The translations under genes and the position numbers were made by a program. Shown here one piece after another: positions 10,144-45,382 of a stretch of 64,000 bases of DNA. The stretch is from a virus (lineage: Duplodnaviria > Caudoviricetes), in the IMG/VR virus record IMGVR_UViG_3300033121_001394, positions 21,594 to 85,593 of that record. One strand, written 5' to 3'. The notes under the pieces were generated by a model. The model searched no databases and was not told the origin of the DNA. It saw nothing but the letters and a program-made list of their open reading frames with translations. Position 1 is the first letter of the stretch; every line of letters begins with the position of its first letter.

Positions 10144-10727
10144 TTCTAGCCCAAATACAAAAATATGATAGGCTAATTAAGAGAGTAGCCAAAGAAACCA
10201 TTCAAAAATACAAATCCTCTATTTTAGATGAGGAAGATTTATATGCCGAAGGCTGTTTAGTTTTAGATAAAATTCTGGCAAGTTATAAGGAAGAAAAGGG
10301 TTCAAAGGTTAATTACATCATTCATTGCTTACGAAACGAATTTTCTGAATTAATAAATAAGCATACTAATAATGTCGCCCTTTCGAAACGTGGAGTTTAC
10401 TTACTTACTCAATATAGGCTCTTATGTAAAACTAAAAATATTGAAGATATTGCTAAAGAATTGGGCACAACAGAGGGGTACTTAAGAAAACTAATAGGTT
10501 TATCCACAAGAAAAGATCTTGCCCAAGCATATAAAGTAGAGAATCTTGATTACAATATAGATAAAACCACATTTTTATCAAAAAATGATGAATTTCTCTT
10601 GAATTTTTACTTAGGCGGTCATACAATTAAAGAAATCGCTAAAAGATTGGGTCGATCTGATGAATCAACTCGATTAGAATTAAAGAAGATTTTCAATAAA
10701 TTGAAGATCTATTGGAAAGAAGTATGA
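10140..10727 (+). CDS. Phage sigma-70-family RNA polymerase sigma factor
   Basis: Region 2 (DEEDLYAEGCLVL...YKEEKG), region 3 HTH (IEDIAKELG) and region 4 HTH (TIKEIAKRLGRS). Confidence 0.8.
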   Translation: MILAQIQKYDRLIKRVAKETIQKYKSSILDEEDLYAEGCLVLDKILASYKEEKGSKVNYIIHCLRNEFSELINKHTNNVALSKRGVYLLTQYRLLCKTKNIEDIAKELGTTEGYLRKLIGLSTRKDLAQAYKVENLDYNIDKTTFLSKNDEFLLNFYLGGHTIKEIAKRLGRSDESTRLELKKIFNKLKIYWKEV

Positions 10728-12379
10728 GTAAGAAACGTGTCCTTTTTGTAAATGAGTTTTCCGAACTCTCTACTGGCTTTGCTACTTATGGGCATTATGT
10801 AATTCCCGAATTATATAAGACGGGCAAATATGAAATTGCTGAGATCGGTGTTTACGCCAGCAAAGCCCACCCTAAAATTGGCAATGTCCCTTGGAAAGTA
10901 TATCCTAATGAACCCGATCCAAATAATATTGAAGAACAAAAGATATACGCCCAAAATAAAATTAATCAATTTGGTCTATGGAGATTTAATGAGGCGGCAC
11001 TTGATTTCAAGCCCGATTTTACGATCTCAATTTCTGACGTTTGGATGAATGAATGGATTCATCAAACACCCTATCGTAATAATTTTAAACATCTTCAAAT
11101 GGTTACTTGTGATGGTGAGCCTCAAAAAGATGAGTGGTTACGCAGTTACAAGAACAACGATGTTTTATTAACGTATTCCTATTGGGCTAAAAATTTAATA
11201 GAAAGAGTAAGTAATGGGCGAACAAAAGTACGAGATGTTGCTTCGCCCGGTACTGATATCCATATCTTCCGCCCACAAGATAAAGTTAAATTGCGTGAAA
11301 GATTTGGTATTAAAGGGGATGTTTTTATTATACAAACGGTTATGAGGAATCAGCCCCGTAAACTGTTCCCCGAACTTATGAAGGCGTTTAACGCCTTTTT
11401 GGAACTCTGCCGTGCTAACGGTCGTGACGATATCGCCCAAAAGACTTATCTTCACCTTCATACTACTAATCCTGATATGGGTTGGGACTTACCCAAGGAA
11501 ATCCGCAATCACGGATTGGGTCACAAGGTAATTTTTACCTATATGTGCGATAACTGTAAAGCCTTTTACCCTTCTTTCTACCAAGGTGATCGTACTATAT
11601 GTCGTCACTGTCATCAATCAAGTTTACGACTTCCTAATACTGCTGTGGGCTTAGAGAGAGAACAACTTGCAGATATTATGGCAATGCCTGATTTGTATAT
11701 TCAGTATAGTTGCTCAGAAGGTTTTGGGCTTCCAATGAATGATGCTAAAGCCTGTGGTGTACCAGCAATGGCTACTGAGCATTCAGCAATGTGGGAGCAA
11801 GGGCACGCACCCGGTGGAATTCCAATCCCAGTTTCAAAACATGTTCAAGAATGTATTACGCAAACCAATCAATTAAGAGCTTGGCCTGATAATGAGGCTA
11901 CTGCCCAATTATTCTACAAATTCTTTACGGCTACGCCGGAGTACAGAGCTAAATTAGGACAAGAGGCTAGAGACTGGGTTGTTAAACAGTACTCTTGGCC
12001 TAATATTGCCAAAATCTGGGAAAATATTATTGACGAGACTCCTATCTTAGATCGTCGTCAAACTTGGGATGCCCCGCCCTATATTATTAAGAATTTGACT
12101 ATGCCAAACCAACAGTTATCTAATATTGACTTTGTCAAATGGGCACTAATTGATGTGCTTCGCAAACCCCGTATGTTCCATGATGTTGGGGGACGATTCG
12201 CTCAGATTTTGGATCAGGGTTTTGAACCTCAGCAATTAGAAGATGGGCGAATGATGCATAAGCCATATAATCGTGAGAACTTTGTCCAATTCTTAGTGGG
12301 ACAGATTAATCAACATAATATGTTAGAATCAATGCGTTGTGGACTTAATCAAACAACTTCGAAAGTGGTGAAGATTTAA
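10724..12379 (+). CDS. GT-B (GT4-like) glycosyltransferase with CxxC...CxxC insertion
   Basis: RNQPRK and SEGFGLPMNDAKACGVP motifs; CDNC and CRHC pair. Confidence 0.85.
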   Translation: MSKKRVLFVNEFSELSTGFATYGHYVIPELYKTGKYEIAEIGVYASKAHPKIGNVPWKVYPNEPDPNNIEEQKIYAQNKINQFGLWRFNEAALDFKPDFTISISDVWMNEWIHQTPYRNNFKHLQMVTCDGEPQKDEWLRSYKNNDVLLTYSYWAKNLIERVSNGRTKVRDVASPGTDIHIFRPQDKVKLRERFGIKGDVFIIQTVMRNQPRKLFPELMKAFNAFLELCRANGRDDIAQKTYLHLHTTNPDMGWDLPKEIRNHGLGHKVIFTYMCDNCKAFYPSFYQGDRTICRHCHQSSLRLPNTAVGLEREQLADIMAMPDLYIQYSCSEGFGLPMNDAKACGVPAMATEHSAMWEQGHAPGGIPIPVSKHVQECITQTNQLRAWPDNEATAQLFYKFFTATPEYRAKLGQEARDWVVKQYSWPNIAKIWENIIDETPILDRRQTWDAPPYIIKNLTMPNQQLSNIDFVKWALIDVLRKPRMFHDVGGRFAQILDQGFEPQQLEDGRMMHKPYNRENFVQFLVGQINQHNMLESMRCGLNQTTSKVVKI

Positions 12380-13482
12380 TGGGTAAAAGCATAACTTATA
12401 TTGGACCATTCTATGATTCTACGGGTTACTGTGACGCTGCTAGTAAAACGACTTTATGTATTCAAAAAGCCGGATATGCTATACAAGCAAAAACAGTAAA
12501 ACTTACTGGACAAAGAGTAGATGCTTATCCAGACATACAGAAATTAGAACTTGTCCGGCATAAGCCGGACATAGTCATTCAAAACTACCTTCCGCCTCTC
12601 ATGGTTTACCACGCCGGAGCAAAGAACATTGGTTATTTCTTTTGTGAAACTTCCCATTTCCGCCCTTCAAATTGGCAATATAATCTTAATTTAATGGATG
12701 AAGTTTGGGTTTGCTGTGATCAAAACATAGAGGCGGCTCAGCGTTCGGGAGTGACTAAACCTATTAAGAAAGTCCCCATTCCCTACGTGAATCCGTATTC
12801 AGAAGTCGTAGATCGTATGGATTTTGGTTTTCCAGAGGATACCTTTGTATTCTTTAATGTCGGAGACTTTTCCTATCGCAAGAATATTATGGGGCTTGTT
12901 GAAGCATATTTCCTATCTTTCACCAAATATGACAAGGTGGCCCTTATTCTAAAGTGTTACTGCGATGGTCAGCCTACGGCAAAATCCGTGGAGATAATTA
13001 AACATGAGATTAATAATCTTAAACGCCAATTAAAGAAACATAATGTAGATATTTATCCTCCTGTTTATCTTGTTGCCGAATACTTAGACGAAGTGGAACT
13101 TCAGAAATTTCACAATGCCGGAGATTGTTTTATTTCTTTAGAACGCGGAGCGGCATGGAATCTCCCTTGCTATCAAGCAATGGGTGAGGGCAAGCCTGTT
13201 ATAGTAGCAGGGGGTGGTGGGCAAACAGAATACCTTATAGGTGAAAAGGAAGGGGTAACACTATTAGATGGGGAAGTCGAATTTGTTAAGAATATGGCCC
13301 AGTGCCCCTATCCCGGTTTATATACTTGCCATGAGAAATGGTTTAATCCTTCAATTCAACATGCAGTATTTGCAATGCAAAGTGCGTATCGCACAGGTAA
13401 GGTTCGGTATAACCGGACAACTTGGTTGTCCAAATGGGATTTAGCGGGCTGTGCCTCTAAATTCAAGGAGGTTTTAGGTTGA
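12379..13482 (+). CDS. GT-B (GT4-like) glycosyltransferase
   Basis: FFNVGDFSYRKN, ERGAAWNLPCYQAMGEGKPVI. Confidence 0.8.
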   Translation: MGKSITYIGPFYDSTGYCDAASKTTLCIQKAGYAIQAKTVKLTGQRVDAYPDIQKLELVRHKPDIVIQNYLPPLMVYHAGAKNIGYFFCETSHFRPSNWQYNLNLMDEVWVCCDQNIEAAQRSGVTKPIKKVPIPYVNPYSEVVDRMDFGFPEDTFVFFNVGDFSYRKNIMGLVEAYFLSFTKYDKVALILKCYCDGQPTAKSVEIIKHEINNLKRQLKKHNVDIYPPVYLVAEYLDEVELQKFHNAGDCFISLERGAAWNLPCYQAMGEGKPVIVAGGGGQTEYLIGEKEGVTLLDGEVEFVKNMAQCPYPGLYTCHEKWFNPSIQHAVFAMQSAYRTGKVRYNRTTWLSKWDLAGCASKFKEVLG

Positions 13483-14480
13483 TTACCCGCGAATTATCAG
13501 TTATGAGGAGATTGTTGGATAATCCTCGTCGAAGGCTTAATATATTAACCCATGCTACACACGAAGGTTTTTCCGGTATGCTAGCAAGTATACCTCATAA
13601 CTTTTACATGCTCTCAGGAGCGATCCAAGGAGGACCACCCTTCAAAAAGTGGGATTACCATACCCGCCCTATGCCCCCTAACCACTACATGTTTAATATT
13701 CCCGCAGAACATACCAAAGCGGATATAGAATTTGATCTTGTATTATGTCAAAATAGGTCAATGTATTATCCCTTCTTTTTTGCAGTAGCCGAAAAACTTA
13801 ATATTCCCCTTATTGTTCTCGATCATACCGAACCACCGCCGGGGGCTAGTCAGCAGCAGTTGAATGGTATTAAACAATGGATTGGACATACTAACGTCTA
13901 CATTACCGAACATAATAGAACAACTTGGGAAAATCCTAACGGCATCATAATTCCTCATGGAATTGACACCGAAGTGTTTAAGGGATATACAGGTGCCCTC
14001 CCAAGAGGCGTAACAATGGTAAATCAATTCCCAAGCCGCGATGTGTTCTGTGGGTGGGGTCTATACCAGAGCCTCTTAAAACAAATCCAATGCGATCTGG
14101 TGGGGGACAACCCCGGATTGTCAAAATCCATCAAAGACCCAGTTGAGATTGCAAGTACTTTAGGACAATATAGATATTATCTTAATACTTCCCAACTTAG
14201 CCCAGTCCCCCTATCGGTTCTTGAGGCAATGGCAATTGGTCTTCCTATAGTTACCACTGCAAAGCAGGAGTTGCCAAAAATTATTCGGAATGGATATAAT
14301 GGGTACATTAGTAATGATCCAGAAGAACTTATTAAAGCTTGTCAGAAATTAGTAGCAGAACCAGAGTTGGCAAAAGAATTAGGGGCAAATGCCCGTAAAA
14401 CAATAGAAGAGAAGTTCTCTTTACAGAACTTCGTGGAAAATTGGAATAATGTGTTCTATAATACCTTGGAGAAAATATGA
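13479..14480 (+). CDS. GT-B (GT4-like) glycosyltransferase
   Basis: IPHGIDTEVF, SPVPLSVLEAMAIGLPIV, NGYNGY, LGANARK. Confidence 0.88.
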   Translation: MITRELSVMRRLLDNPRRRLNILTHATHEGFSGMLASIPHNFYMLSGAIQGGPPFKKWDYHTRPMPPNHYMFNIPAEHTKADIEFDLVLCQNRSMYYPFFFAVAEKLNIPLIVLDHTEPPPGASQQQLNGIKQWIGHTNVYITEHNRTTWENPNGIIIPHGIDTEVFKGYTGALPRGVTMVNQFPSRDVFCGWGLYQSLLKQIQCDLVGDNPGLSKSIKDPVEIASTLGQYRYYLNTSQLSPVPLSVLEAMAIGLPIVTTAKQELPKIIRNGYNGYISNDPEELIKACQKLVAEPELAKELGANARKTIEEKFSLQNFVENWNNVFYNTLEKI

Positions 14481-14932
14481 AATTAAACTTTCAATGCGGG
14501 CAGGACTTTATAACTGGATGGAAAAACTATGATATGAATCCAGTGAATGCTGAAATTCAGCAGTTTGACTTTAGAAACTTTCAGCAATTAGGAATGAAGG
14601 ATAATACAGTTGATGAAATTAGACTTAACACATCCTTAGAACTCGTCCACTTTTCCCAAATAGGAAACTTGTTCACTCAATTTTATAACGCCCTACAGGT
14701 CGGAGGTAGCCTCTACCTCCAAGGTATTCATGCTGAACAACTTGCCAACACTTTAGCCTATGGCAATATATCTATTGAAGAGTTCAATCAGGTAGTTTAT
14801 GGACATCCCCAGTTGCCCCACCGATCCTTGTATACTTTAAACCTAATAGAAAATATTATGGGGCAGATAGGGTTTAAGATTAAGCAAAAGGGGATTATAG
14901 GGCAAGCCTTCTATATAAGGATTACGAAGTGA
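14477..14932 (+). CDS. Class I SAM-dependent methyltransferase-like protein
   Basis: MKLNFQCG...GWKNYD start resembles the LNLGCG motif-I family; LELV...LQVGGSLYL. Confidence 0.6.
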   Translation: MKLNFQCGQDFITGWKNYDMNPVNAEIQQFDFRNFQQLGMKDNTVDEIRLNTSLELVHFSQIGNLFTQFYNALQVGGSLYLQGIHAEQLANTLAYGNISIEEFNQVVYGHPQLPHRSLYTLNLIENIMGQIGFKIKQKGIIGQAFYIRITK

Positions 14933-15630
14933 TTACGTCGGTAATAACTAATTTTAATCAGGGTAAATTTATTGAATCTGCCCTTAATAGTTTACTTGGG
15001 CAAACCATGTTGCCTTCTGAGATTATAGTGGTAGACGATAAATCAACAGACAACTCAGTAGAATTAATAGAGAAATGTATAGGAAAATATACGGGGCCGA
15101 TCCCGATTCATTTTGTTAAAAGGGAAACCAACGGTAAGCCGGGAGGGGCAAGGAACTCTGCTATCAAAATAGCCAAGGGCGATATTATTACCTTCCTTGA
15201 TATTGATGATTACTATTACAAAGATAAGATTCAAAAATCAGTTGAGGTTCTTGAAAAGAATTCCGAAGTAGGATTAGTTTATTCCGATTATGATAAGACG
15301 GATTTACGTACTGGAAAGTCGATGCGTGAATTTAAACATCCTTATGATTTTGCCCTTCTTTGGCAAACTTGTATTGTGAGTACTAATTCCGTAATAAGGG
15401 CAGAAGTATTTAAAGAAGGTGTAGTCGGCCTATTTAATGAAAAATACCTAGTGGCTGAGGACTATGAAATGTGGCTTCGTATCGCCCGTAAATATATCCT
15501 TTGGCACATTCCAGAACCCTTATTTATGTATCGTCTGCACGGTGAAAATCTAACTATTAAGTATGGATATACAATGAATAAAGTAGTAGAAGAAATTAAA
15601 AGGAATTATATTAATGAGCATTCAACTTAA
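14929..15630 (+). CDS. GT-A (GT2) glycosyltransferase
   Basis: SVITNFNQG, VVDDKSTD, GGARN, FLDIDD (DxD), AEDYEMWLR. Confidence 0.92.
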   Translation: MITSVITNFNQGKFIESALNSLLGQTMLPSEIIVVDDKSTDNSVELIEKCIGKYTGPIPIHFVKRETNGKPGGARNSAIKIAKGDIITFLDIDDYYYKDKIQKSVEVLEKNSEVGLVYSDYDKTDLRTGKSMREFKHPYDFALLWQTCIVSTNSVIRAEVFKEGVVGLFNEKYLVAEDYEMWLRIARKYILWHIPEPLFMYRLHGENLTIKYGYTMNKVVEEIKRNYINEHST

Positions 15631-16159
15631 TAGTGCAGCAGCCAAAGCCGCCAAACAATCCATCGTCCCTCTCTATAAATCACCCTTTCAATTTGGTATT
15701 TTCCTTAGTAAATTCAATCAGACCCAGATGGCTTTTGGCCTTTTGAAGAATTTAAACGAATTTTTTGGAAAACCCCAAAATATCGACATATACTTATATA
15801 CGCTCGAACATTCTTTACCCATAATTGTACCCCCCACCAGTTTATTTCAACGTCCTCATTTGGATAATCATGAGGGGTATTTAGTAGTTACCGATTATAC
15901 TACGTGGCAACAGGCAATAAAAATTGATGGTGCAAAGGTTTTATTTTATGTTTATGACCTAATGTATCTATCGCTCTTACCAGCGAATCTTTTAGAAGAG
16001 ATTCGAGCCGCAGGAACAGTATGTTTCTCTCATACAACCGCCCATAATAATATCTTAGAGAAGATGTTTAGATTTAAAGTACCAAATAAGGTATGTCACA
16101 CTTTTAATATTGAACAATTAATAGGAGTAGTACGTGAGCAAGACGCCAGAAGCAACTGA
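15614..16159 (+). CDS. Glycosyltransferase-associated protein, possibly a single Rossmann half-domain
   Basis: Last gene of the GT cluster; beta/alpha pattern with LFYVYDL. Confidence 0.4.
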   Translation: MSIQLNSAAAKAAKQSIVPLYKSPFQFGIFLSKFNQTQMAFGLLKNLNEFFGKPQNIDIYLYTLEHSLPIIVPPTSLFQRPHLDNHEGYLVVTDYTTWQQAIKIDGAKVLFYVYDLMYLSLLPANLLEEIRAAGTVCFSHTTAHNNILEKMFRFKVPNKVCHTFNIEQLIGVVREQDARSN

Positions 16160-16823
16160 AAGTTTAACACATCGTAGATTTAATGATCCCGAATGGACTG
16201 ATTGGGTTTTGGATCAATTATGGGAGAATGAGTTTGTTGTCAAAGATGATGGCAAGCGTTATCCAAAGGCCGATGGATTACGTCGAGTGTTTCATAATGT
16301 AGTTGGCCCTATTATTTCTATGACTCGTAGTGTTGCTCAAGCACCAGCAGCGAGTATGGAAAATGATTATTCGGGTATAGCTACGATTAGAGTTTCTATT
16401 ACTTATAGTTGCCCTGAAATTGCCGCAGGTATCTGTGTTTATGACGAAGTGGCCGATTGCTACGATGGAAATACAATCCGCCCATATTCATTACATCCGT
16501 CTGCAACAGCATCTACAATGGCTGAAGGACGTGCTTTGCGAAAGATTATGAACCTAAAGGTTCTTACGATTGAAGAAATGTCTGCTCCACCCGGAGCAAA
16601 TAAGCAAAGAGATTCTGCTCCTCCAATTAAGGAACATCAAAAGAATACTATTAAGACAATTTGTAAAAATATAGAAATTGATCCTGTTAAAGCAATTAAA
16701 TATATTATAGGAAAAGATGTTAAAGATCTTAATATTGAAGACGGTGCCCAAATTATTGGGGCACTTAGCGATTGGCAAATTAGTAAAAATGGGAAGTTTA
16801 ATATCCCAGCAGATTTCAAATAA
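16134..16823 (+). CDS. Rad52/Sak-like single-strand annealing protein
   Basis: GLRRV...ATIRVSI...ATASTMAEGRALRK...EEM core followed by a low-complexity linker and a helical tail. Confidence 0.55.
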   Translation: MSKTPEATESLTHRRFNDPEWTDWVLDQLWENEFVVKDDGKRYPKADGLRRVFHNVVGPIISMTRSVAQAPAASMENDYSGIATIRVSITYSCPEIAAGICVYDEVADCYDGNTIRPYSLHPSATASTMAEGRALRKIMNLKVLTIEEMSAPPGANKQRDSAPPIKEHQKNTIKTICKNIEIDPVKAIKYIIGKDVKDLNIEDGAQIIGALSDWQISKNGKFNIPADFK

Positions 16824-16832
16824 GGAGTTAGT

Positions 16833-19051: not shown

Positions 19052-21322
19052 TTAAGTACATCCAGTTGATCCTAAAAAGCGTGAATCACTAGCTCCTATA
19101 CCTGAAGCATACCCAATTTGAGGATAACCACAACTAAAAGTTGCTACACTATTTTCCCAATTTTTAATATAAGTGTATGTTTTTCCATTAGTTGGAATAC
19201 TAGTAGGACATTCTCCCCAGATTGGCTTATTATTATTAGTGGTTATAGTAGAATTACAACTGCCAGTCCAATTATATGGAGCAAGAGTACACGCATTAAA
19301 ACTTACTACTCCACTGGATACACGACTTTCTACATAATTACTAGAACCATATCCACATAAATCTAAAGAAGTATTAAAAGTATAACTTCCAAAACCACCG
19401 CATTCTTCTCCGTAATTGACACTTCGAGGTTCACATGTTGCTCCGTCTCCATCACATCCAAAATTACAAGCCCCAAGACTAAATGTGCCAGTAGGAACAC
19501 TAGGTGTTGAAGGAAAATTTTGACAACTAAAACAGTAAGTGTTATTAGTGGGCGATCCGGCATCGATCCAAACTCCAGATGTACAAAATGTCCCACCGCA
19601 AGCAGAACTAACAGTATTGTTTTCTGTAAAACAAACCCCCGTTCCACCATTTATAGTACATCCACAGGTAGTAGATATTCGTGTTAAACTTACATTTAAG
19701 GAGTGAGAATTATTACCATTCCAACATAAACCTGCTGAATTACAACAGCTAAAACTTCCTCCGCAAACACCGGGTGGTAAACCGCATTGTCCAATATTGA
19801 TAAAATCATATAATCCAATAGTATTGCTAGTATCCCACCCACATTTTTGTCTAGTGCTTGTATTTGATTCTGAAAGCGAATAAGTAAGAGTTTGTGTAAA
19901 TGGATGATGTACTCTCGAACTCAAACAACAAGTTCCCGCATTTTCTTCTGCTGTAAAACCACATTCACAACAAGCAGTACCGCAATCAATGTCTATCCTG
20001 CTACACACGCTACCATTTGTACAAACTCCACTTGCTCTTAATGGAGAAATAACTGGTCTAAATAAAGCTTTTAAAGTAATACCAGTGGGTAAATAATCAT
20101 AATATTCTGGATAAACTAATCCTAAATTTTCAATACGATCCCAATTATCGCACCGTGGACAAGAATTATAAGTAATACTACTACAATTAACACCGTCTGG
20201 TGCAGTTTTACATCCTCCCGGTAAACCAAAATAGGCAGAACCTCCGGGTATTTCTAATATATTAGCAATAGTTCCCGCCATAATATCTTCGGGAATAAAA
20301 TTCCACGGATGTGTTGAACAAAAAACACCTAAACCTCTTTGGGCTATATATGAAGAAACGGGCCGAGTTCTTGGAATATTTTCTTCTTTAATTTTTGGTG
20401 ATGCAGGATCTAAATATTGACACCATCCGTATTGATTAGAAATTAATGGATTACCCGGATTGCAAAATTCCGTATATCCCGGTAAACCTACATCTTGCCC
20501 ATATTGAAATAATGGTCCAGCATCAGGATTATTAATATCTACGATCATAAAGGGAACCTTTACAAGCATTGGTATATCACAATCTGGATGTAAGTTACTT
20601 TCACAAATATATAGAATAGGTTGATTAATAACAAAATCGGCTGCGGGAGTATAAAAATCTTTCCAATAATTATTATTTAATAAAGAATTTCCTTCTTGAT
20701 TAAAAGGGTGTGGATAATTTGAACCAACTCCATTTTTACACCGATATACAGTAGAACAAGGGCATCGTTGACATGCATAGTACCAAGTAGTTTTACATAC
20801 AAAACTAGAACAGCCATATGAAATTAACCAACCATTATCTACTACTTTTTCACCACCGCAATTTAATAGAGAATCAGCACCTAAAGTACGACTACCAGCG
20901 GGAACACAGTGGGTTAATTTGGGATCATTAAAAATTACGTCATCTGTAGTCCAATTACATCGTCTACGAATAAAAGATTGTAAATCAACAGAACCATTTA
21001 ATAAACTTAAAGGTCGATCAAAATTAATCAGAGGTTCTTTATAGGAATAATTAAAGCGAGTAGGGGCGACCGTGGAATATTCATATGATCCCCCATTAAT
21101 ACTCGTTTGATCATCTAACCATACCTCATGAAATAAATCTGATCCGGTGGTAGCAATAAAAGGATTAAACGTAGAACTATTTAAAGGATTAGTGAACAAA
21201 ACTCCAGTAATAACCAGAACCCCCTTTGTCAGTATTAATAAATCCAGTAGATAATAGACCAGTACCATTAATAATACCACTCGCAATATATGTAAATAAT
21301 TTATTTTGTACATTAATATCAA
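19052..21322 (-). CDS. Very Cys-rich distal tail/virion protein (5' end doubtful)
   Basis: About 49 Cys by hand count; Gly/Ser/Thr/Asn-rich; end of the tail module. No convincing start codon of its own. Confidence 0.6.
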   Translation of the reverse strand: MILMYKINYLHILRVVLLMVLVYYLLDLLILTKGVLVITGVLFTNPLNSSTFNPFIATTGSDLFHEVWLDDQTSINGGSYEYSTVAPTRFNYSYKEPLINFDRPLSLLNGSVDLQSFIRRRCNWTTDDVIFNDPKLTHCVPAGSRTLGADSLLNCGGEKVVDNGWLISYGCSSFVCKTTWYYACQRCPCSTVYRCKNGVGSNYPHPFNQEGNSLLNNNYWKDFYTPAADFVINQPILYICESNLHPDCDIPMLVKVPFMIVDINNPDAGPLFQYGQDVGLPGYTEFCNPGNPLISNQYGWCQYLDPASPKIKEENIPRTRPVSSYIAQRGLGVFCSTHPWNFIPEDIMAGTIANILEIPGGSAYFGLPGGCKTAPDGVNCSSITYNSCPRCDNWDRIENLGLVYPEYYDYLPTGITLKALFRPVISPLRASGVCTNGSVCSRIDIDCGTACCECGFTAEENAGTCCLSSRVHHPFTQTLTYSLSESNTSTRQKCGWDTSNTIGLYDFINIGQCGLPPGVCGGSFSCCNSAGLCWNGNNSHSLNVSLTRISTTCGCTINGGTGVCFTENNTVSSACGGTFCTSGVWIDAGSPTNNTYCFSCQNFPSTPSVPTGTFSLGACNFGCDGDGATCEPRSVNYGEECGGFGSYTFNTSLDLCGYGSSNYVESRVSSGVVSFNACTLAPYNWTGSCNSTITTNNNKPIWGECPTSIPTNGKTYTYIKNWENSVATFSCGYPQIGYASGIGASDSRFLGSTGCT

Positions 21323-23546: not shown

Positions 23547-23547
23547 T

Positions 23548-24663: not shown

Positions 24664-24691
24664 AATCCCAAACCTTATGTCCTTATAAGAC

Positions 24692-34200: not shown

Positions 34201-36251
34201 ATACTTTTATCAAAAGAACCATTAATAGATTCTAAAGTTTTATCAATATCACTTTTTCCACCACCTAAAGTTTTTTGACGCTGTTTTTCTAGTTCTCGTA
34301 GGGTAGCAATTAATCGTGATACCTGACGATCACCTGTTAATTGTTGAGCAATATTATTAATCTGTTTAGAATTAAAACGAGAATCAATAGAAAATAATAT
34401 TTTAGATAATTGTCTAAATTGATCAACTACTCCTTTATCTACATCGACACCTAAACTACTAAGTAATTTTTGTGAACGAGGATTAAGTAATTGGGTGACA
34501 CCACTCTTAAAAAACGTACCTAAAGTTTCAGCAGTTTCACGGGTTGAAGAACGTAGTAATGAAAAGAGTTCAACGAATTCTTTTAAAGAACCGTTTGATT
34601 GAGCAAAGACTGCACCACCTCTTTTAACAGCTTCGAAAATGTCACCTGATTCAACGGCAAAATCAGCAGCAAACTGATTTACAGTATCTAAAATTTCACC
34701 AGTGTCATCTAATCCTTTGTTAAACTGACCAAAAATAGCAATTAAACCTTCGGTTGTTGATTTTAAATCACCAAAGGTAGCCGCAAGTGGTACTTTTGCT
34801 AAATCGGTAGCAACTTTTCTAAGTTGATCTGGACTATTAAAACCGGCCTGTGCAAACGTTTGGACTGCATCAGCAATGTCAGTAATTGAAGTACCCGTTA
34901 TAACACCGGCGTTACGAACGGAGTCTCCAATATCTTTTAATTGAGCCTGAGTTGAAGTAGTAACCTGTTCAACTTTAGTCATTGCCGCTTCAAACTTTAA
35001 AGCCTCTTGTGTGGCATTTTGGAATGCACTAACAATTCTAACAATACCAAAGGAGCCAACAAGGAATGCCCCGTAACGTTTAAATGCCAATGCCGCCGCA
35101 CCGCCGAATCCTTCAATTCCACCTTGGGCAGCTTTAGCATTTTTTTCTACTTCTTTTAAATCAGATTTTAATTGTCTAGCATCTCTTATTAATTGTTGAT
35201 TAGCAACTCTAGTGTTTTTATCTTTTATTTGACTACTGGCAATATCTCCAGCATTAGCACTAACAAATCGTTGAAATTTTGGATCAACTTGAACTCCTAA
35301 ACTTTTAGCTTTAGCTAAAAGATCATTAAGTCGCTCTTGGCGAGCAACCACTTTTGCCGTTTCTTTTTCTAATTGTTTCTCAGCCGCAACATTTGCCCTA
35401 CGTTGTGCCTCTTCTGCTTTCCCTCTTTGTTCAATAGCACCCACAAATTTATCTGCTTCAAACTTCCGTTCTCTTTGTTTATCAGCGATAATTCTATCAG
35501 CAGTATCATCTACAATTTTTCTTTTTTCCGCTTCATTTTTTGCTTGTTTTCTTTTCGTTTCCTCGGCAATTTTAATTTCTGCCTCTTGTCTCGCTTTCGC
35601 AGCAGCTAAAGTTGATTGTAAATCTAATTCTCTATTTCTTGCTTGTTCCGAAGCATATTTATTATAAGCATCAGAAATTGCTTTTTCTCGTAACTTATTA
35701 TTACGAATTTCATCATCAGTAATTGCTTTATTTGTTTTTTTCGCTGTATCTTCTAAATCTTTTAAACCCTGATTTAAATTAGATATAAATTGGGCTTTAG
35801 CAATTTTATTAGCAGGACTATTAAAAATATCTGAAGAAAATATAGCCTTCAAAGTTGCTTGTGCTTGTTTGACTTGTTCTTCATTACCCGAAGCAAGACG
35901 GGATAAAACTCCTCTTGCAACACGCTCTAAATTAAGCATGGCTTTAGAAGCATTTTGTGCCCCGGCTGGCAAAGCCTCAGTAAAACTAGAAACTACTGGA
36001 TTCGCTGCCCCAAACACCTTTTTAAGTCTTGTGACCGTATCAACTAACTCTCCAAAACCAATATTGGTACTTTTAATATCTTTGCTGAGTTGAGTGACAT
36101 CAAAACCTTTTAAATTTATTTTTCCCAACCCCTTTTCAATTCCATCAGATACATTGCTAGCAATTTGATTAGATAACCTTGAGAATGCCTCATTGGTATT
36201 CTTGATAGAATTAATCGTAAGATCAAATGGAATATTTATATTTTGGGCCAT
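31251..36251 (-). CDS. Tape measure protein
   Basis: 1666 aa, helical A/Q/K/L-rich, with a core typical of TMPs (FEAAMTKV, DAVQTFAQAGF, DIFEAVKRGG) and the expected synteny. Confidence 0.92.
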   Translation of the reverse strand: MAQNINIPFDLTINSIKNTNEAFSRLSNQIASNVSDGIEKGLGKINLKGFDVTQLSKDIKSTNIGFGELVDTVTRLKKVFGAANPVVSSFTEALPAGAQNASKAMLNLERVARGVLSRLASGNEEQVKQAQATLKAIFSSDIFNSPANKIAKAQFISNLNQGLKDLEDTAKKTNKAITDDEIRNNKLREKAISDAYNKYASEQARNRELDLQSTLAAAKARQEAEIKIAEETKRKQAKNEAEKRKIVDDTADRIIADKQRERKFEADKFVGAIEQRGKAEEAQRRANVAAEKQLEKETAKVVARQERLNDLLAKAKSLGVQVDPKFQRFVSANAGDIASSQIKDKNTRVANQQLIRDARQLKSDLKEVEKNAKAAQGGIEGFGGAAALAFKRYGAFLVGSFGIVRIVSAFQNATQEALKFEAAMTKVEQVTTSTQAQLKDIGDSVRNAGVITGTSITDIADAVQTFAQAGFNSPDQLRKVATDLAKVPLAATFGDLKSTTEGLIAIFGQFNKGLDDTGEILDTVNQFAADFAVESGDIFEAVKRGGAVFAQSNGSLKEFVELFSLLRSSTRETAETLGTFFKSGVTQLLNPRSQKLLSSLGVDVDKGVVDQFRQLSKILFSIDSRFNSKQINNIAQQLTGDRQVSRLIATLRELEKQRQKTLGGGKSDIDKTLESINGSFDKSIVKRIDDVGISFNRLKESVSDFVIEFFQTDSIKSLIKDVANLAIEFTRLSKILVPLAPLFVGIVSASVLPKFTSNFRSGLTQVFGKKDATNKRSLLSKENLIDSLPLIVGGATAISSSLSNIIPEKNITNNLKTTNVGSAITSGVGGAVLGGSLFGVPGAIVGGLTATILSLTSAIKENTQNLISINLDRAKDPLAKLELAGNQLLNPSKSGIQEFFDNTPRLIRKASSVFFDRSPINRPESFSNLLSGNLPNGDKPSSILDIKLIDTFNNTLRLIRNNAIDKAVKNLGPNANAALIQKSAVEDLKKQIGSLSIVKNAKDVEGTINTILAKLNITTSEIKKFIDEIFNSLEDPFKNLILKVNNSFEKITNSISKNLDRLAGFSSDINAQAQVKVPTNSSSFFKSAGLDSFNRFNAELTNTAQNLATFLSKDNIRGIFRQFTLNRTGTNEVVPSNTVIGEKSFAEVVGELFNDNKIRTEFSNQFQDVFETLKIVSGKSFTDLFTDLFKSNDITSFLKDNQSELIAIQEKARQAVLNSIEVENQKLKLENDLASAARQSNQALFDLNARIKSLQNSGALRNAQNTQFFANVGVLRSGVANARTLTQAAQTTSFDSNNSFINDLQNSAKVRNREVKFNRLGQGSDISFEAKKGFAESANQANIEFVNKQQEANQRLAEFDTRIASAAQATDILKEAFTTLRNDLRSAGQTISGLADKDIKNIFKSINKFAALDGLQNPTGALNKLNRKEFDQVQQGLNLIGNVELGNGITGSALLGNIQEKIGIETVARLKSAFTGKDERGNVAQQLADLKQQAQDSANLEKQLRNDQINLLKAQASLIPLEQEFYQEQIPLLRSIDTQLEPLTDIRKILDQLFTDKPQKVFMDQSFDGGNESLNKLSMISDNSSTLVDIGNNIVSKLESLAEKSNSLEIAPVQVNVALAAPDVLAMVGPTLQASILKNISAKLAEVFRSDPEVSSKILASIGTTT

Positions 36252-38485: not shown

Positions 38486-39559
38486 TTAGAGGCCAGCAGG
38501 GTCTTTCGCAGTAAAGCGAACAGTCATGTCATTAAAGTTAGAGTAATTATAAGTTAAAGTTACGTTACCACCACCAGTGTCACCACCGTTTGTCTGAACG
38601 TTCTGTAACTTATTCTTAACACCAAGGTCAAGGGTCACACCTTGAGTTAAGGCAATATAGATTCGTTCGTCTACAAGGTTATCTGCCGTTGAAGATGCGT
38701 TAGTACGATCGCCATATTCATCAGCCGTTACTTCGATTGAACAAGTAACTTCAGTTGGGAAGTTGGCGTAACGGAAGTAGGGGCCTTTACGACCCAGTTC
38801 AAAGAGGTCGGTTCTACCAAGGTTACAGCCAATATTAATGCTCTGGATGTGGGCTGAGAATGAGCCGTCAGCATAAACTTGAACTTTACCACTTAAGTTA
38901 TTACCAGAAATACCGGGAATACCAAGGGGGAAGTAAGAATTAGCAATATCAACGTTTTCACGACGTTGAACACCACCAGAAGGAACACCAGTGACAGGAG
39001 ATTCAGAACCAGCAAAAAGAGTACCAGAAGTCCATAAGTTACCTGAAGGAGCATTATACCAAGTTTTATCATTCGCAACAAGAGTAATGCTCTCAGTCAT
39101 ATTTCCTTCAACAGGAATAGCCCAGTTAATTGCCGAAACATATAAACCAGACATCACCATAATGCTTAAAGGAACACCGCTGGAGAATTCTTGGGAAATA
39201 TTATAGTAGGCAACGGCAGCCATACAACGATTGCTATTATAGCGACCTGCTAAAGTTGCATTTGTTGCTGTTGGGGTAGCCAAGTGTTCCAAAAGAGCAT
39301 AACCATCAATAACCTTTGAAACATTTAATTCAACACTGGGTAAGTTCTCAATATTTTCATAAATTGAAATCTGACCTAATTCATAAACTTGTTCAAGATT
39401 AAAAGATGTATTAAAACCTACAGACTGAACACCTTTTGCAGCGGTGTAACGGCCAGTAGGAGCGTTAACACCAGTTCCAATAGGAGTGCCTAAAGGAGCA
39501 AACCCAATCGCATGGATAGGGTAATAAACTCTGGCGTTGGATGGATTTGTCAATGACAT
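38486..39559 (-). CDS. Major tail tube protein
   Basis: GVQSVGFNTSFNLEQVYELGQ...IYENIE and RTDLFELGRKGPY repeats; own promoter motif, strong RBS and downstream terminator. Confidence 0.75.
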   Translation of the reverse strand: MSLTNPSNARVYYPIHAIGFAPLGTPIGTGVNAPTGRYTAAKGVQSVGFNTSFNLEQVYELGQISIYENIENLPSVELNVSKVIDGYALLEHLATPTATNATLAGRYNSNRCMAAVAYYNISQEFSSGVPLSIMVMSGLYVSAINWAIPVEGNMTESITLVANDKTWYNAPSGNLWTSGTLFAGSESPVTGVPSGGVQRRENVDIANSYFPLGIPGISGNNLSGKVQVYADGSFSAHIQSINIGCNLGRTDLFELGRKGPYFRYANFPTEVTCSIEVTADEYGDRTNASSTADNLVDERIYIALTQGVTLDLGVKNKLQNVQTNGGDTGGGNVTLTYNYSNFNDMTVRFTAKDPAGL

Positions 39560-43866: not shown

Positions 43867-44871
43867 TTACATTGAAGAAATTAATGTACAACGAGAATCC
43901 AAACACGCGAAGCCAAGTTCCATACGACCATAAAGACTGAATAAGCCCTTACGATGCATGGTGTTATCTTCAACAATCTGAAGATCTTCACGAATTGGCA
44001 TAATGAAACTGTTCTGGCGAGAAAGATCTAAACCAACTGCGATTTCTACGTCAGAGGCACCCATTACACCACCAAGGGTAGTTGTGTAGTAGCTCTGATA
44101 ATCTTGACCTTCACCAAGTTCATCAAGAGCATGGATTTTAACACCAAAGACATTGATTTCATCAATATCACCACCAGTATTGAAGTACTGTTGACGCTGA
44201 CTATCAGGGATCAAATCAAGACCCCAAGAACGAATATCCATTACAGCTTCAGGAGACGCGAATACGTCAGTAAGTTTAGAACGACCTGAAGTACCACTGT
44301 TACCACCGCCGTTTCTACGCATAAATGTAGACATAAGAGTGATTAAACGAGGAGTTAATTGACCAATAGCCGCGTTAGGATCAGCAACAACAATGTTTCG
44401 ATCAGTTGCAGCAGCTAACACAACTTGCCAACCGTCATCGTTAAGTTTCTTGCGGAAACCAGCCTCAAGAACTTCCAACATACGTTGAATAACGGGCCAA
44501 TTAGCATTTCGAATAAAACGAAGAGAGGTATCAATTGCGTTACCAACATAATACGTTGGTACACGAAGGTAATCGCCCTCAACAATTGCTTGTGGGATTC
44601 GACCAACATTAGGCAAGGTAAAGGCCGCGAATTCTTTTTCCTGACCCGGAGTAAGCAAGTCAAGCTGGAATTCAACGTTAGGATTATCAGTGAAATCCAT
44701 AGGAGTATAAACTCCACCGATAGTATCGCCTGTTAAAAGGGTCTTACGTAAAGGCTGTTCAATAGCTTGCACAATTTCAGTGCGTGCTTTTTCAGCCACC
44801 GCTATATCAGTTGATAAGACATTTTTAAAACTAGCGGTAATAACATTCTGTTCATTTTTATCAATATTCAT
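43867..44871 (-). CDS. Major capsid protein (probably HK97 fold)
   Basis: 334 aa after the protease/scaffold and decoration genes, followed by a terminator; ends ELGFACLDSRCTL. Confidence 0.78.
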   Translation of the reverse strand: MNIDKNEQNVITASFKNVLSTDIAVAEKARTEIVQAIEQPLRKTLLTGDTIGGVYTPMDFTDNPNVEFQLDLLTPGQEKEFAAFTLPNVGRIPQAIVEGDYLRVPTYYVGNAIDTSLRFIRNANWPVIQRMLEVLEAGFRKKLNDDGWQVVLAAATDRNIVVADPNAAIGQLTPRLITLMSTFMRRNGGGNSGTSGRSKLTDVFASPEAVMDIRSWGLDLIPDSQRQQYFNTGGDIDEINVFGVKIHALDELGEGQDYQSYYTTTLGGVMGASDVEIAVGLDLSRQNSFIMPIREDLQIVEDNTMHRKGLFSLYGRMELGFACLDSRCTLISSM

Positions 44872-44890
44872 TGCTAATCAACCTTTTCTA

Positions 44891-45382
44891 TTATAGCTCG
44901 ACTTGGAATTGAGCATAACCTTCACTGTCAACGTTGGTGAGGAACTTACCTACAGCAGCCCAACCTGAACCAGCATAACCAGCACCAGTAAAGAGGAATC
45001 CGCTTGAACCGGCATAACCAGTAGCGGGCATGGCTAAACCGCTTGCTGCACCGGGAGCAATATAGTTCGTAACAACGGTGCCCTTCTTCATAAGGCGAAC
45101 CTTGTTACCAATCTGGCATTCATCCTTATAAGGATTAACGTACTGACGTGACTGATCAATATTAACAACGTCATTCATTAAGAGTCCAACTGGAATTCTA
45201 CCAGAAGGTGCAGAAGGAATACCAGTTAAAGGATACTCAACCCTGCGATTAGTATTATCCATTATGGAACCGCGTGGAGCAGAACCAGAGGTAGCGAATA
45301 CGATTCCGCCACGCTCACCAGTACTAAACATAAAATATTCAACCGAATCTAAAACTTCATTAAACTGGGGCTTAAGTGCCAT
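44891..45382 (-). CDS. Capsid decoration/auxiliary head protein
   Basis: Between scaffold and MCP; PVGLLMNDVV and KGTVVT motifs; G/A/S-rich. Confidence 0.6.
   Translation of the reverse strand: MALKPQFNEVLDSVEYFMFSTGERGGIVFATSGSAPRGSIMDNTNRRVEYPLTGIPSAPSGRIPVGLLMNDVVNIDQSRQYVNPYKDECQIGNKVRLMKKGTVVTNYIAPGAASGLAMPATGYAGSSGFLFTGAGYAGSGWAAVGKFLTNVDSEGYAQFQVEL

What the first reader, a model, noticed from the sequence alone, without database searches (positions are those of the whole stretch)
10724..45382. Candidate virion glycosylation system: glycosyltransferase cluster and Gmd paired with [S/T]-G-hydrophobic motifs on surface virion proteins
Seen: three GT-B genes, a GT2, a methyltransferase-like gene and an accessory gene (10724-16159), plus gmd (53062-54105). 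Exposed structural proteins are studded with S-G-x and T-G-x: by hand, about 23 SG versus about 11 GS in the 656-aa protein and about 14 SG in the 371-aa protein, with many more in the Dit-like, tube, neck and decoration proteins. Portal, TerL, TMP and MCP look comparatively poor in the motif. No base-hydroxylating or hydroxymethylase gene is visible in the window. Known: some mycobacteriophages glycosylate their virions with their own glycosyltransferases, and Ser-Gly is the acceptor for eukaryotic glycosaminoglycan attachment. Inference: a phage O-glycosylation pathway using an [S/T]G sequon to build a deoxyhexose-containing, possibly methylated, glycan coat.
Basis: partly seen in the sequence, partly recalled or inferred. 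Interest (0 to 1): 0.82.

Follow-up and report, generated by a model that had tools for sequence, protein, structure and literature searches.

The report
Phage sugar-gene set and Ser-Gly-rich fibres
An uncultured aquatic long-tailed phage carries a conserved set of sugar-building enzymes, and its fibre proteins are unusually rich in Ser-Gly-hydrophobic turns; both are real, but nothing found here links them, and what receives the sugars is still unknown (the virus particle is the best guess).

Summary
Observation: mostly confirmed. The window (last 64 kb of an 85.6-kb IMG/VR phage record) encodes three GT4-like glycosyltransferases, a small methyltransferase-like protein, a GT2 and an unknown protein (10712-16159, +). 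A true GDP-mannose 4,6-dehydratase lies at 53062-54105 (-). The hand counts are exact. In five distal tail proteins SG is the most over-represented dipeptide (82 seen, 34 expected, z 8). It is followed by a hydrophobic residue in 61% of cases. TG is not enriched in this phage.

Interpretation: partly supported. The sugar module is a core gene set of a large uncultured lineage (at least 593 IMG/VR loci), fixed between DnaE and the annealase, with Gmd between TerS and TerL. DNA is an unlikely acceptor. Two DTR-bounded (complete) relatives (G002, G031) have no thymidylate-synthase homologue and no TET/JBP match, G002 also no C5-methylase, and the genomes purge restriction palindromes (GCGC 0 of about 65 expected).

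The SG motif does not track the enzymes. Relatives with the same module range from O/E 0.79 to 2.1. The motif is periodic (5-13 residues) and sits in turns before strands. Tail proteins of lambda and T5, which served as GT-free controls, reach about 1.9.

Best reading: a virion-directed glycan module (about 0.4), with SG-Φ mainly a structural fibre motif (sequon about 0.15). This scan has flagged similar [S/T]-G motifs in other phages.

The parts
10712..12379 (+). GT555: GT4-like retaining glycosyltransferase with an inserted four-Cys zinc ribbon and a C-terminal helical domain (likely start 10724)
   Evidence: Pfam and NCBIfam GT1/GT4 matches. AF2 pLDDT 90.9. GT-B fold; the top PDB hit is the chlorovirus NY-2A putative GT 3OY2, followed by GlgM, BshA, MshA and PimB'. 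Invariant C275, C278, C293, C296. 1136 homologues, many carrying inteins.
12379..13482 (+). GT367: second GT4-like glycosyltransferase
   Evidence: PF00534 E 3e-5, below cut-off. Orthologues sit in the same position in G1, G2, G6 and G7 and in 68-73 of 80 loci.
13479..14480 (+). GT333: canonical GT4 glycosyltransferase
   Evidence: PF00534 E 2e-14 and PF13692. Nearest solved sequences are BshA and TarM.
14477..14932 (+). Small class-I methyltransferase-like protein (151 aa), motif I degenerate
   Evidence: Methyltransf_23 E 6e-5, below cut-off. Alignment with G1 and G2 orthologues. The cluster is present in 59 of 80 loci.
14929..15630 (+). GT2 (GT-A) glycosyltransferase
   Evidence: PF00535 E 3e-30. 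DxD motif (LDIDD) present. Nearest solved sequences are chondroitin and heparosan synthase GT2 domains, TarS (name recalled for 5tze) and GalT1.
15614..16159 (+). 181-aa protein of unknown function, last gene of the sugar block
   Evidence: No Pfam, PHROG or NCBIfam match. Weakly conserved (34 of 80 loci).
53062..54105 (-). Gmd, GDP-mannose 4,6-dehydratase; the only SDR in this record and in the complete relatives G001 and G002
   Evidence: Lies upstream of TerL in about 25 relatives.
54098..55033 (-). TerS-like protein (N-terminal HTH plus long coiled coil); not a sugar enzyme
   Evidence: Alignment of nine orthologues. No family match. The role is inferred from architecture and position.
48936..52316 (-). 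Large terminase with an intein
   Evidence: PHROG TerL matches plus an intein-like middle part.
29173..31254 (-). 693-aa protein directly after the tape measure (Dit position), SG-rich
   Evidence: SG 14 against 5.8 expected, z 3.8. Orthologues in G1 and G2 are not enriched.
26669..29173 (-). 834-aa distal tail protein, SG-rich
   Evidence: SG 16 against 7.0 expected, z 3.8. Orthologues in G1 (5/5.4) and G2 (2/7.1) are not enriched.
24702..26672 (-). 656-aa tail fibre with a GGTG fibre motif and periodic [ST]-G-Φ turns
   Evidence: SG 23 against 9.0 expected. PHROG tail-fibre match at residues 385-417. 28 homologues have pooled SG O/E 2.23; the 25 distant ones have TG 1.74. S and T interchange at aligned sites. 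Low-confidence AF2 model.
23548..24663 (-). 371-aa tail protein, SG-rich
   Evidence: SG 14 against 4.7 expected, z 4.9.
21189..23546 (-). 785-aa tail protein, SG-rich
   Evidence: SG 15 against 7.0 expected, z 3.4.
19052..21322 (-). 756-aa most distal tail protein; rich in S, T and G but NOT SG-enriched
   Evidence: SG 4 against 7.1 expected, GS 13.
38486..39559 (-). Putative tail tube protein (role by position); three [ST]G sites conserved in 10 relatives
   Evidence: sites 127, 137, 324. No family match.
43867..44871 (-). Putative major capsid protein (role by position and conservation); no conserved [ST]G and no S/T-rich C-terminal tail
   Evidence: No family match.
44891..45382 (-). 163-aa Gly-rich head-module protein, enriched in [ST]G
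   Evidence: [ST]G 9 against 2.8 expected, z 4.3. No [ST]G site is conserved in at least 80% of 12 relatives.
31251..36251 (-). Tape measure protein, not enriched
   Evidence: PHROG TMP matches. SG 11 against 8.7 expected.

Best explanation
The window holds a phage glycan-building module of soluble enzymes. Gmd makes GDP-4-keto-6-deoxymannose from host GDP-mannose. No second SDR is present, so the final 6-deoxyhexose needs a host reductase or a bifunctional Gmd (inferred). Three GT4-like enzymes and one GT2 build a short oligosaccharide, and the small methyltransferase-like protein may cap it (inferred).

The module is a core, probably indispensable gene set of a large uncultured aquatic siphophage lineage. 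The acceptor is most likely made by the phage and sits in the cytoplasm. The best candidate is one or more virion proteins, by analogy with mycobacteriophage and chlorovirus particle glycosylation.

The S-G-hydrophobic excess in the fibre proteins is real. It is best read as a repeated turn-plus-strand structural motif of these fibre folds, not as a demonstrated sequon.

Shown here: gene identities, conservation, synteny, absence of known DNA-hydroxylating enzymes, palindrome purging, and the motif statistics. Inferred: the acceptor, the glycan composition and any methylation.
For: Identities.

Core status. GT555 has 1136 homologues at E<=1e-10, about 555 aa long, and the 120 best are 37-94% identical. 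Many carry an intein exactly at the catalytic YS|C-EGxG motif. At least 593 IMG/VR loci exist. The order DnaE>GT555>GT367>GT333>(MT)>GT2>annealase holds, with DnaE adjacent to GT555 in 78 of 80 loci.

Gmd. It lies between TerS-like and TerL in about 25 relatives. It is physically next to the GT block in 17 of 80 loci. Gmd-family SDRs occur in 23 of 28 long GT555 records, often several per record.

Against DNA as acceptor. The complete DTR genome G002 has no thymidylate-synthase homologue, no TET/JBP match and no C5-methylase. A TS homologue is found in 1 of 28 further records, and it scores as canonical. Pyle et al. (bioRxiv 10.1101/2023.12.21.572611) report that DNA-GT pathways are usually clustered with ThyS or 5mYOX. 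Palindrome purging is extreme: GCGC 0 of 81, G2 GATC 0 of 353; in the window, GCGC 0 against 65 +/- 7. RM potency tracks site number unless sites are masked by modification (PMC8594841).

Against a variable host glycan. The high conservation of GT555 contrasts with the accessory, hypervariable GT islands of marine myophages (PMC7029224).

Precedents. An O-MTase plus three tandem GTs modify capsid and tail tube in cluster O mycobacteriophages (PMC11600133). GT+MTase(+epimerase) cassettes sit beside portal or terminase genes in S-CBS4 and TJE1. The top fold hit is a chlorovirus GT.
Against: There is no chemistry, and no acceptor has been identified. The GT block is embedded in, and tightly coupled to, the replication operon (DnaE, SSB, sigma, annealase). 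It has none of the late-motif copies seen in the structural arm, which fits a DNA-linked role equally well. GT555 carries a zinc ribbon, a module often used for nucleic-acid binding. The capsid and tube proteins lack the S/T-rich C-terminal tails used in mycobacteriophages. No sequence homology to mycobacteriophage GTs was found for GT555 or GT2. The structural neighbours of GT555 include small-molecule GTs (BshA, MshA, GlgM). Peripheral O-antigen GTs also lack TM helices, so solubility does not exclude a lipid-linked host acceptor.
Confidence: 0.4

Rival explanations
1. Sequon model. The GTs O-glycosylate Ser/Thr in an [S/T]-G-hydrophobic motif on exposed tail and fibre proteins, giving a deoxyhexose-containing, methyl-capped coat.
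For: The SG excess is strong, directional and at the protein level. It occurs in eight non-paralogous proteins of this phage, including three encoded outside the window. In the 656-aa fibre family S and T interchange at aligned sites while G stays fixed; SG O/E is 2.23 over 28 homologues and TG 1.74 over the 25 distant ones. NG and DG, the usual turn dipeptides, are depleted rather than enriched, unlike the controls, where DG is the top dipeptide. The sites fall in turns, so they are probably exposed (low confidence).
Against: The motif does not follow the enzymes: O/E is 0.79-2.09 among module-bearing relatives, and orthologues of the enriched proteins are not enriched. The most conserved GT would need a conserved acceptor, yet the MCP has no conserved [ST]G. 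The 5-13 residue periodicity and the position before strands fit a structural repeat. Lambda and T5 tail proteins, used here as GT-free controls, reach 1.6-2.2. The most distal 756-aa protein lacks the excess. SG is at expectation in cytoplasmic phage proteins, which a short sequon would also mark.
Confidence: 0.15
2. DNA hypermodification. The GT block glycosylates phage DNA during or after replication, as in T-even phages and the 5hmC or 5hoC glycan pathways.
For: There is invariant linkage to DnaE, SSB and the annealase in 78 of 80 loci. A dNMP kinase is present and conserved. GT555 has a zinc ribbon. Inteins, as in the other DNA-metabolism genes of this phage (RNR, TerL), mark GT555. Gmd sits next to the packaging genes. 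DNA glycans of up to three sugars are known.
Against: No TS homologue, no TET/JBP match and no C5-MTase in complete G002; TS in 1 of 28 further records (the TET search had no positive control). Total purging of specific restriction palindromes is what phages do when their DNA is not masked. No 6-deoxyhexose on DNA is known to me. T4-type DNA GTs are not among the listed top fold matches.
Confidence: 0.12
3. Host-directed glycan remodelling. The enzymes alter a host envelope glycan (O-chain, capsule, teichoic acid) or make a small-molecule glycoside, for example to block superinfection or to stop progeny sticking to debris. This is the published reading for marine myophage GT islands.
For: This is the reading given in PMC7029224. 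The GT2 resembles TuaG, EpsE and WcaA, and GT333 resembles EPS and TarM-type enzymes. The fold neighbours of GT555 include the small-molecule GTs BshA, MshA and GlgM. Gmd is common in cyanomyophages.
Against: GT555 is conserved like a core gene and carries inteins across hundreds of phages from marine and freshwater samples, whereas host glycans and host-directed GT islands are hypervariable. No priming phosphoglycosyltransferase, flippase or polymerase appeared among the conserved neighbours that were annotated. Gmd lies in the late packaging operon.
Confidence: 0.2

Closest known systems
Mycobacteriophage virion O-glycosylation (Che8, Corndog, Myrna; Freeman et al. 2023, read only through citing papers PMC11600133 and PMC12363180)
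   Same: Phage-encoded tandem glycosyltransferases next to a methyltransferase gene. Soluble enzymes, with a phage-made cytoplasmic acceptor proposed.
   Different: No detectable sequence homology for GT555 or GT2. There is no S/T-rich C-terminal tail on capsid or tube. Here the set is a core gene block inside the replication operon, plus a Gmd. No glycan has been shown.
Chlorovirus capsid glycosylation machinery (virus-encoded GTs, GMD, a GT-methyltransferase fusion; details recalled from memory) and the NY-2A putative GT, PDB 3OY2
   Same: Virus-encoded GDP-mannose 4,6-dehydratase plus several soluble GTs and a methyltransferase. 3OY2 is the best structural match of GT555 (E 3e-18).
   Different: Eukaryotic algal virus; only 14% identity. 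GT555 has an added zinc ribbon and a C-terminal helical domain. The function of 3OY2 is itself only putative.
Phage DNA glycan hypermodification (T4 alpha/beta-GT; 5hmC glycans, Pyle et al.; arabinosyl-5hoC, PMC13326640)
   Same: GT-A and GT-B enzymes in or near replication genes. Multi-sugar products are possible.
   Different: The required hydroxylated-base enzymes are absent from the complete relatives G002 and G031. The genomes avoid restriction sites instead.
Host recognition cluster sugar islands of pelagimyophages and cyanomyophages (PMC7029224)
   Same: Aquatic phages with GTs and deoxy-sugar genes, discussed together with tail fibres.
   Different: Those islands are hypervariable and lie among fibre genes of myophages. 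This block is conserved, syntenic and lies in the replication arm of a siphophage.
Repeated turn-strand motifs of fibrous beta proteins (T4 gp5 VxGxxxxx beta-helix; adenovirus/reovirus triple beta-spiral xG-Φ-x-Φ repeats; recalled from memory)
   Same: A Gly-containing turn followed by hydrophobic strand residues, recurring every 5-15 residues.
   Different: Here the residue before Gly is almost always Ser (or Thr in homologues), and Asn/Asp are avoided. The fold was not established (AF2 pLDDT 56.6).

Membership tests
GDP-mannose 4,6-dehydratase (SDR; PF16363 / TIGR01472) | Full-length match to the family models | tested here: met
   PF16363 E 1.6e-83, positions 2-332 of 332. TIGR01472 gives 249 bits over 1-340 of 342, below the equivalog cut-off of 415 but far above any other SDR model.
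GDP-mannose 4,6-dehydratase (SDR; PF16363 / TIGR01472) | Catalytic S/T-x-E, YxxxK and NHES motifs and an N-terminal Gly-rich NADP site | tested here: met
   The alignment to 7kf3 shows ASSYEVF, SPYSIAKAAAD, NHES and GVAGQDA.
CAZy GT4-type retaining GT-B glycosyltransferase (GT555, GT367, GT333) | Two-Rossmann GT-B fold with a C-terminal-domain EGxG nucleotide-sugar motif | tested here: met
   For GT555: AF2 pLDDT 90.9 and Foldseek hits to GT4 enzymes at E 1e-12 to 1e-18; SEGFGLP motif. GT333 meets the Pfam cut-off. GT367 and GT555 are below the Pfam cut-off on sequence alone.
CAZy GT4-type retaining GT-B glycosyltransferase (GT555, GT367, GT333) | Canonical E-x7-E | tested here: inconclusive
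   GT555 reads E-x7-D (EGFGLPMND; family consensus EGxGMPIxD). GT333 has a LEAMA-type segment.
Mycobacteriophage-type virion glycosylation system | Tandem phage GTs with an adjacent O-methyltransferase gene | tested here: met
   Gene content and order, compared with PMC11600133.
Mycobacteriophage-type virion glycosylation system | Homology of the GTs to Che8 gp110 / Corndog gp38 | tested here: not met
   tblastn of GT555 and GT2 against 50,697 phage records gave no mycobacteriophage hit. GT367 and GT333 were not searched.
Mycobacteriophage-type virion glycosylation system | Glycans carried on C-terminal extensions of capsid and tail tube subunits | tested here: not met
   No S/T-rich C-terminal extension in the putative MCP or tube of G0, G1 or G2. 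The chemistry itself is not testable here.
Mycobacteriophage-type virion glycosylation system | Glycan detected on virion proteins | not testable with these tools
   The phage is uncultured.
Phage DNA glycosylation pathway | Enzyme that makes a hydroxylated base (thymidylate-synthase homologue, or C5-MTase plus TET/5mYOX) | tested here: not met
   Absent from G000 and from complete G002. TS is present in G001 and in 1 of 28 further records, with canonical scores. TET/JBP was 0 of 31, but that search had no positive control.
Phage DNA glycosylation pathway | DNA masked from restriction (no need for site avoidance) | tested here: not met
   Complete loss of GCGC, GGATCC and GGGCCC (G0), of GATC and several 6-mers (G2), and of GCGC and several 6-mers (G1).
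O-glycosylation sequon ([S/T]-G-Φ) | Motif co-varies with the transferase across relatives | tested here: not met
   Tail SG O/E ranges from 0.79 to 2.09 among relatives that all carry Gmd and, wherever the contig reaches that region, the GT block.
O-glycosylation sequon ([S/T]-G-Φ) | Motif exceeds composition and exceeds tail proteins of phages without GTs | tested here: inconclusive
   O/E is 2.4 here against a pooled 1.25 in 16 lambda, T5, T4 and Staley tail proteins. Single controls reach 1.9, and the control set is small.

The most novel reading that the evidence does not exclude
The periodic [S/T]-G-hydrophobic turns of the fibre proteins are the acceptor sites of a cytoplasmic, phage-encoded O-glycosylation system (Gmd, three GT4, GT2, methyl cap). 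That system would coat the tail fibres of a large lineage of aquatic siphophages. It would be a structural sequon analogous to autotransporter heptosylation, and possibly the same phenomenon as the [S/T]-G-x motifs this scan has flagged in unrelated marine phages.
Probability: 0.13. Interest if true: 0.85.

Novelty: new variant of a known kind. Interest (0 to 1): 0.5.

Why it matters
Virion glycosylation by phage enzymes has been shown only in mycobacteriophages. A conserved module of soluble enzymes with nucleotide-sugar supply, found as a core gene set in hundreds of aquatic phage contigs, would make sugar coats (or another sugar-based function) a mainstream trait of environmental phages. 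That would bear on adsorption, particle stability and defence evasion. GT555 is a viral-only GT4 family with a zinc ribbon and with inteins at its active site. It is a well-defined target for biochemistry: a single in vitro assay could decide between a protein, DNA or small-molecule acceptor. The result also warns against reading Ser/Thr-Gly excess in fibres as a sequon without enzyme co-variation.

Tried and rejected
- Beta-turn bias as a full explanation. Rejected in simple form: NG and DG are depleted, not enriched.
- A DNA-level motif. Rejected: both the AGY and TCN Ser codon families encode the SG serines.
- Paralogy of the SG-rich proteins. Rejected.
- Local S/G compositional clustering. 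Rejected: GS is 1.18 and GG 0.77.
- NG replaced by SG to avoid deamidation. The NG deficit of about 12 cannot supply an SG excess of 48.
- The 311-aa Gmd neighbour as a sugar enzyme. Rejected: it has TerS-like architecture.
- Late-promoter motif upstream of the GT block. None found.
- Cultured relatives. None by MCP or fibre.
- Close relatives of the 656-aa and 834-aa proteins in IMG/VR by pattern search. None found.
- AF2 of the fibre was too poor (pLDDT 56.6) for exposure mapping.
- Pfam and PHROG gave nothing for most structural proteins, so the portal, MCP, tube and Dit roles rest on position.
- Freeman et al. 2023 is not held in the library.
- The ESM Atlas gave only viral hypothetical or GT clusters.

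Full report
WHAT THE WINDOW IS
The window is bases 21594-85593 of an 85.6-kb IMG/VR virus record that CheckV rates 53% complete. GC is about 35% up to 56 kb and 45-47% beyond. No tRNA or Rfam family was found.

The + arm (52-17315) is one tightly packed replication operon. It holds DnaE in pieces with LAGLIDADG genes, a sigma factor, the sugar block, an annealase-like gene and an SSB-like gene. The - arm (17338-55538) is the morphogenesis operon. Its order is sigma- or HTH-like, TerS-like, Gmd, HNH, ERCC4 nuclease, TerL with an intein, head genes, a 1666-aa tape measure and six large distal tail proteins. The 21.6 kb upstream of the window carry RNR with an intein, RecA, DnaB, primase, dNMP kinase, a GMP-reductase/IMPDH-family protein and a PD-(D/E)XK nuclease. 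Most structural proteins match no Pfam or PHROG family. The names portal, MCP, tube and Dit therefore rest on position and conservation only.

CHECK OF THE OBSERVATION
The six genes at 10712-16159 are as described:
- Three GT4-like proteins. Only the third passes Pfam's cut-off on sequence. The first is confirmed by a confident model and fold search.
- A 151-aa methyltransferase-like protein whose motif I is degenerate.
- A GT2 with a DxD motif.
- An unknown 181-aa protein.

None has a TM helix. Gmd is genuine: full-length family matches, E about 1e-60 to solved GMDs, and catalytic motifs kept.

In the five consecutive tail proteins at 21189-31254, SG occurs 82 times against 34 expected. It is the most over-represented of all 400 dipeptides (z 8.2). 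GS (1.18), TG (1.09), DG (0.97) and NG (0.57) are not enriched. Both Ser codon families contribute. The proteins are not paralogues. Three more SG-rich proteins lie outside the window, at 3088-6388 of the record. The residue after SG is hydrophobic in 61% of sites against a 33% background. Portal, TerL, TMP and the putative MCP are at expectation. So is the most distal 756-aa tail protein, despite its S/T/G-rich composition. The [S]-G-hydrophobic part of the observation therefore holds. The [T]-G part does not hold for this phage.

HOW UNUSUAL IS THE MOTIF
Sixteen tail proteins of lambda, T5, T4 and Staley give a pooled SG O/E of 1.25, with DG as their top dipeptide. Single proteins reach 1.6-2.2 for SG or TG: lambda J 1.86, lambda H 1.95, T5 pb4 TG 2.2. 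The proteins here are all at 2.0-3.1, so the excess is larger than in this small control set but goes in the same direction.

The 656-aa fibre has 28 alignable homologues in public metagenomes. Their pooled SG O/E is 2.23, and the 25 distant ones (at most about 40% identity) have TG 1.74 and [ND]G 0.79. At many of the query's SG sites the homologues carry SG or TG interchangeably over a fixed Gly. Spacings between successive [ST]G peak at 5-13 residues, three to six times above shuffles. In the low-confidence AF2 model (mean pLDDT 56.6), the SG pairs at 350, 363, 461, 469 and 479 fall in the two-residue gaps between consecutive strands. This is the signature of a repeated turn-plus-strand unit of a fibrous beta fold. 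Such turns would also be exposed, so it does not by itself exclude modification.

DOES THE MOTIF FOLLOW THE ENZYMES
Relatives were found through the putative MCP: 44 loci at 31-54% identity, plus one near-identical. Two are complete genomes, G001 (172.5 kb) and G002 (126.6 kb, direct terminal repeats). Synteny with the window is conserved gene for gene at 21-47% protein identity, including the sugar block and Gmd.

Gmd lies just upstream of TerL in all 13 long relatives and in about 25 loci that reach far enough. The 311-aa gene before it has an N-terminal HTH and a long coiled coil, so it is TerS-like and not a sugar enzyme. The GT block is present in every relative whose contig covers that region.

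Despite this constant enzyme content, pooled SG O/E of the distal tail proteins varies widely:
- this phage: 2.09
- G1: 1.75
- G6: 1.69
- G11: 1.49
- G4: 1.38
- G2: 1.30
- G5: 1.29
- G7: 0.79

Orthologues of the enriched 834-aa protein have 5/5.4 (G1) and 2/7.1 (G2). Across 10-12 relatives the putative MCP has no conserved [ST]G, the tube has three, and the other conserved head and neck proteins have none or one. The motif is thus a property of particular fibre proteins, not of possession of the enzymes.

WHAT THE SUGAR MODULE IS
GT555 is the best-conserved member. It has 1136 homologues at E<=1e-10, nearly constant in length, and the 120 best are 37-94% identical. All nearest ESM Atlas clusters are at least 88% viral. 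Many homologues are about 940 aa because an intein with a LAGLIDADG domain is inserted. In a 94%-identical relative the intein sits exactly between YS and C-EGxG, the nucleotide-sugar motif. The family has an invariant CxxC...CxxC ribbon and a C-terminal helical domain. Its best structural match is the putative GT of chlorovirus NY-2A (3OY2), followed by retaining GT4 enzymes.

IMG/VR holds at least 593 loci. In 78 of the best 80, DnaE is the upstream neighbour, followed by GT367 (68-73), GT333 (58-65), the small MTase-like gene (59 by clustering), GT2 (45) and the annealase. SSB, sigma and a DnaQ-like exonuclease are the other conserved neighbours. A Gmd-type gene lies beside the block in 17 of these loci. 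Gmd-family SDRs occur in 23 of 28 long records, often three to six per record. This is therefore a core glycan module with variable sugar supply, in a large lineage of 125-185-kb aquatic phages. In this window's own relatives G000, G001 and G002, Gmd is the only SDR. The 4-keto intermediate must then be reduced by a host enzyme or by Gmd itself (inference).

WHICH ACCEPTOR
DNA. Known phage DNA glycosylation needs a hydroxylated base from a thymidylate-synthase homologue or from a C5-methylase plus TET-type oxygenase, and these pathways are usually clustered. G002 has none of these. G001 has a canonical-scoring ThyA and a C5-methylase far from the block. Among 28 further GT555-bearing records, one of them DTR-bounded, only one has a TS homologue and none matches TET/JBP, although that search had no positive control.

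Independently, the genomes have purged specific palindromes completely:
- G0: GCGC 0 of 81, GGATCC 0 of 11, GGGCCC 0 of 13
- G1: GCGC 0 of 98, plus five 6-mers
- G2: GATC 0 of 353, plus several 6-mers

The window has no GCGC against 65 +/- 7 in dinucleotide-preserving shuffles. Site avoidance is the strategy of phages whose DNA is not masked. RM potency follows site number unless sites are masked by modification (PMC8594841). DNA is therefore unlikely as acceptor, though the fixed linkage to DnaE and the zinc ribbon keep it alive.

Host glycans. The published reading for marine phage GTs is remodelling of the host O-chain (PMC7029224). Those islands are hypervariable. GT555, by contrast, is conserved like a capsid gene and carries inteins, which points to a conserved acceptor.

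Virion proteins. The only proven phage precedent has the same gene content: an O-methyltransferase plus three tandem GTs that modify capsid and tail tube (PMC11600133; PMC12363180). Chloroviruses add a viral GMD (recalled from memory). GT+MTase(+epimerase) cassettes sit beside portal or terminase genes in Synechococcus phage S-CBS4 and Tetrasphaera phage TJE1. Against this reading, there is no homology to the mycobacteriophage GTs for the two proteins searched and no S/T-rich C-terminal tails.

My estimates are: virion protein 0.40, host or small-molecule target 0.20, DNA 0.12, and the rest unknown. I put the specific claim that [S/T]-G-Φ is the sequon at about 0.15.

COMPARISON AND NOVELTY
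The module works most like the mycobacteriophage and chlorovirus particle-glycosylation sets, but it fails two of the testable membership features of the former. It is a new variant of phage-encoded glycosylation: a viral-only GT4 family with a zinc ribbon and inteins, fixed in the replication arm, with Gmd fixed between TerS and TerL. No paper in the searched library describes this lineage.

Earlier notes of this scan report similar [S/T]-G-x excesses in outer tail proteins of unrelated marine phages, with mixed results on enzyme co-variation. I treat them as leads only. They suggest the motif is a general feature of aquatic phage fibres. If anything, that favours a structural cause unless chemistry shows otherwise.

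VERDICT
Interest 0.5.

Noticed in passing
window 1-64000 (whole); G1 and G2 = L057-L065, L050-L056: Complete purging of specific restriction palindromes. GCGC is absent from the window (65 expected). GGATCC and GGGCCC are absent from the 85.6-kb record. GATC is absent from relative G2 (353 expected). GCGC and five 6-mers are absent or nearly so from G1. Each relative avoids a different set, which suggests different hosts or RM repertoires.
   Followed up: partly
window 10724-12379; homologues P0035, P0036, P0040 and others: Many homologues of the first glycosyltransferase carry an intein with a LAGLIDADG domain, inserted exactly at the catalytic YS|C-EGxG motif. The window's allele is intein-free. 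An intein in a glycosyltransferase seems unusual to me (from memory, not checked) and argues that the gene is indispensable.
   Followed up: partly
relatives G3 (L073-L074), G4 (L076-L077), G5 (L080-L081): Tape-measure ORFs of 5109 aa (G4), 6543 aa (G5) and at least 4772 aa (G3, reaching the contig end), against 1666 aa here. At about 1.5 Å per residue (from memory) this implies tails approaching 1 µm.
   Followed up: no
window 54098-55033 and 53062-54105: Gmd is wedged between a TerS-like gene and TerL, overlapping the TerS-like stop by 8 nt. The arrangement is kept in about 25 relatives. In some distant GT555-bearing records the Gmd match is split or extended (for example a 670-aa frame in G035), which suggests inteins or introns there too.
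   Followed up: partly
G000:C1:3088-6388 (upstream of the window; L003): Three adjacent + strand proteins (497, 359 and 243 aa; no Pfam match) between RNR and RecA are as SG-rich as the tail proteins (14/4.5, 9/4.6, 10/3.9). They are probably extra fibre-like virion proteins encoded away from the structural arm.
   Followed up: no
window 56000-64000: GC rises from about 35% to 45-47%, and only short ORFs are present up to the contig end. Earlier notes describe hairpin-plus-RBS cassettes here.
   Followed up: no
window 17967-18668, 42740-43798, 52728-53093, 48936-52316: Three HNH endonuclease genes and a TerL intein interrupt the structural operon. Together with the RNR intein and the split DnaE, they make this genome unusually rich in selfish elements.
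   Followed up: no
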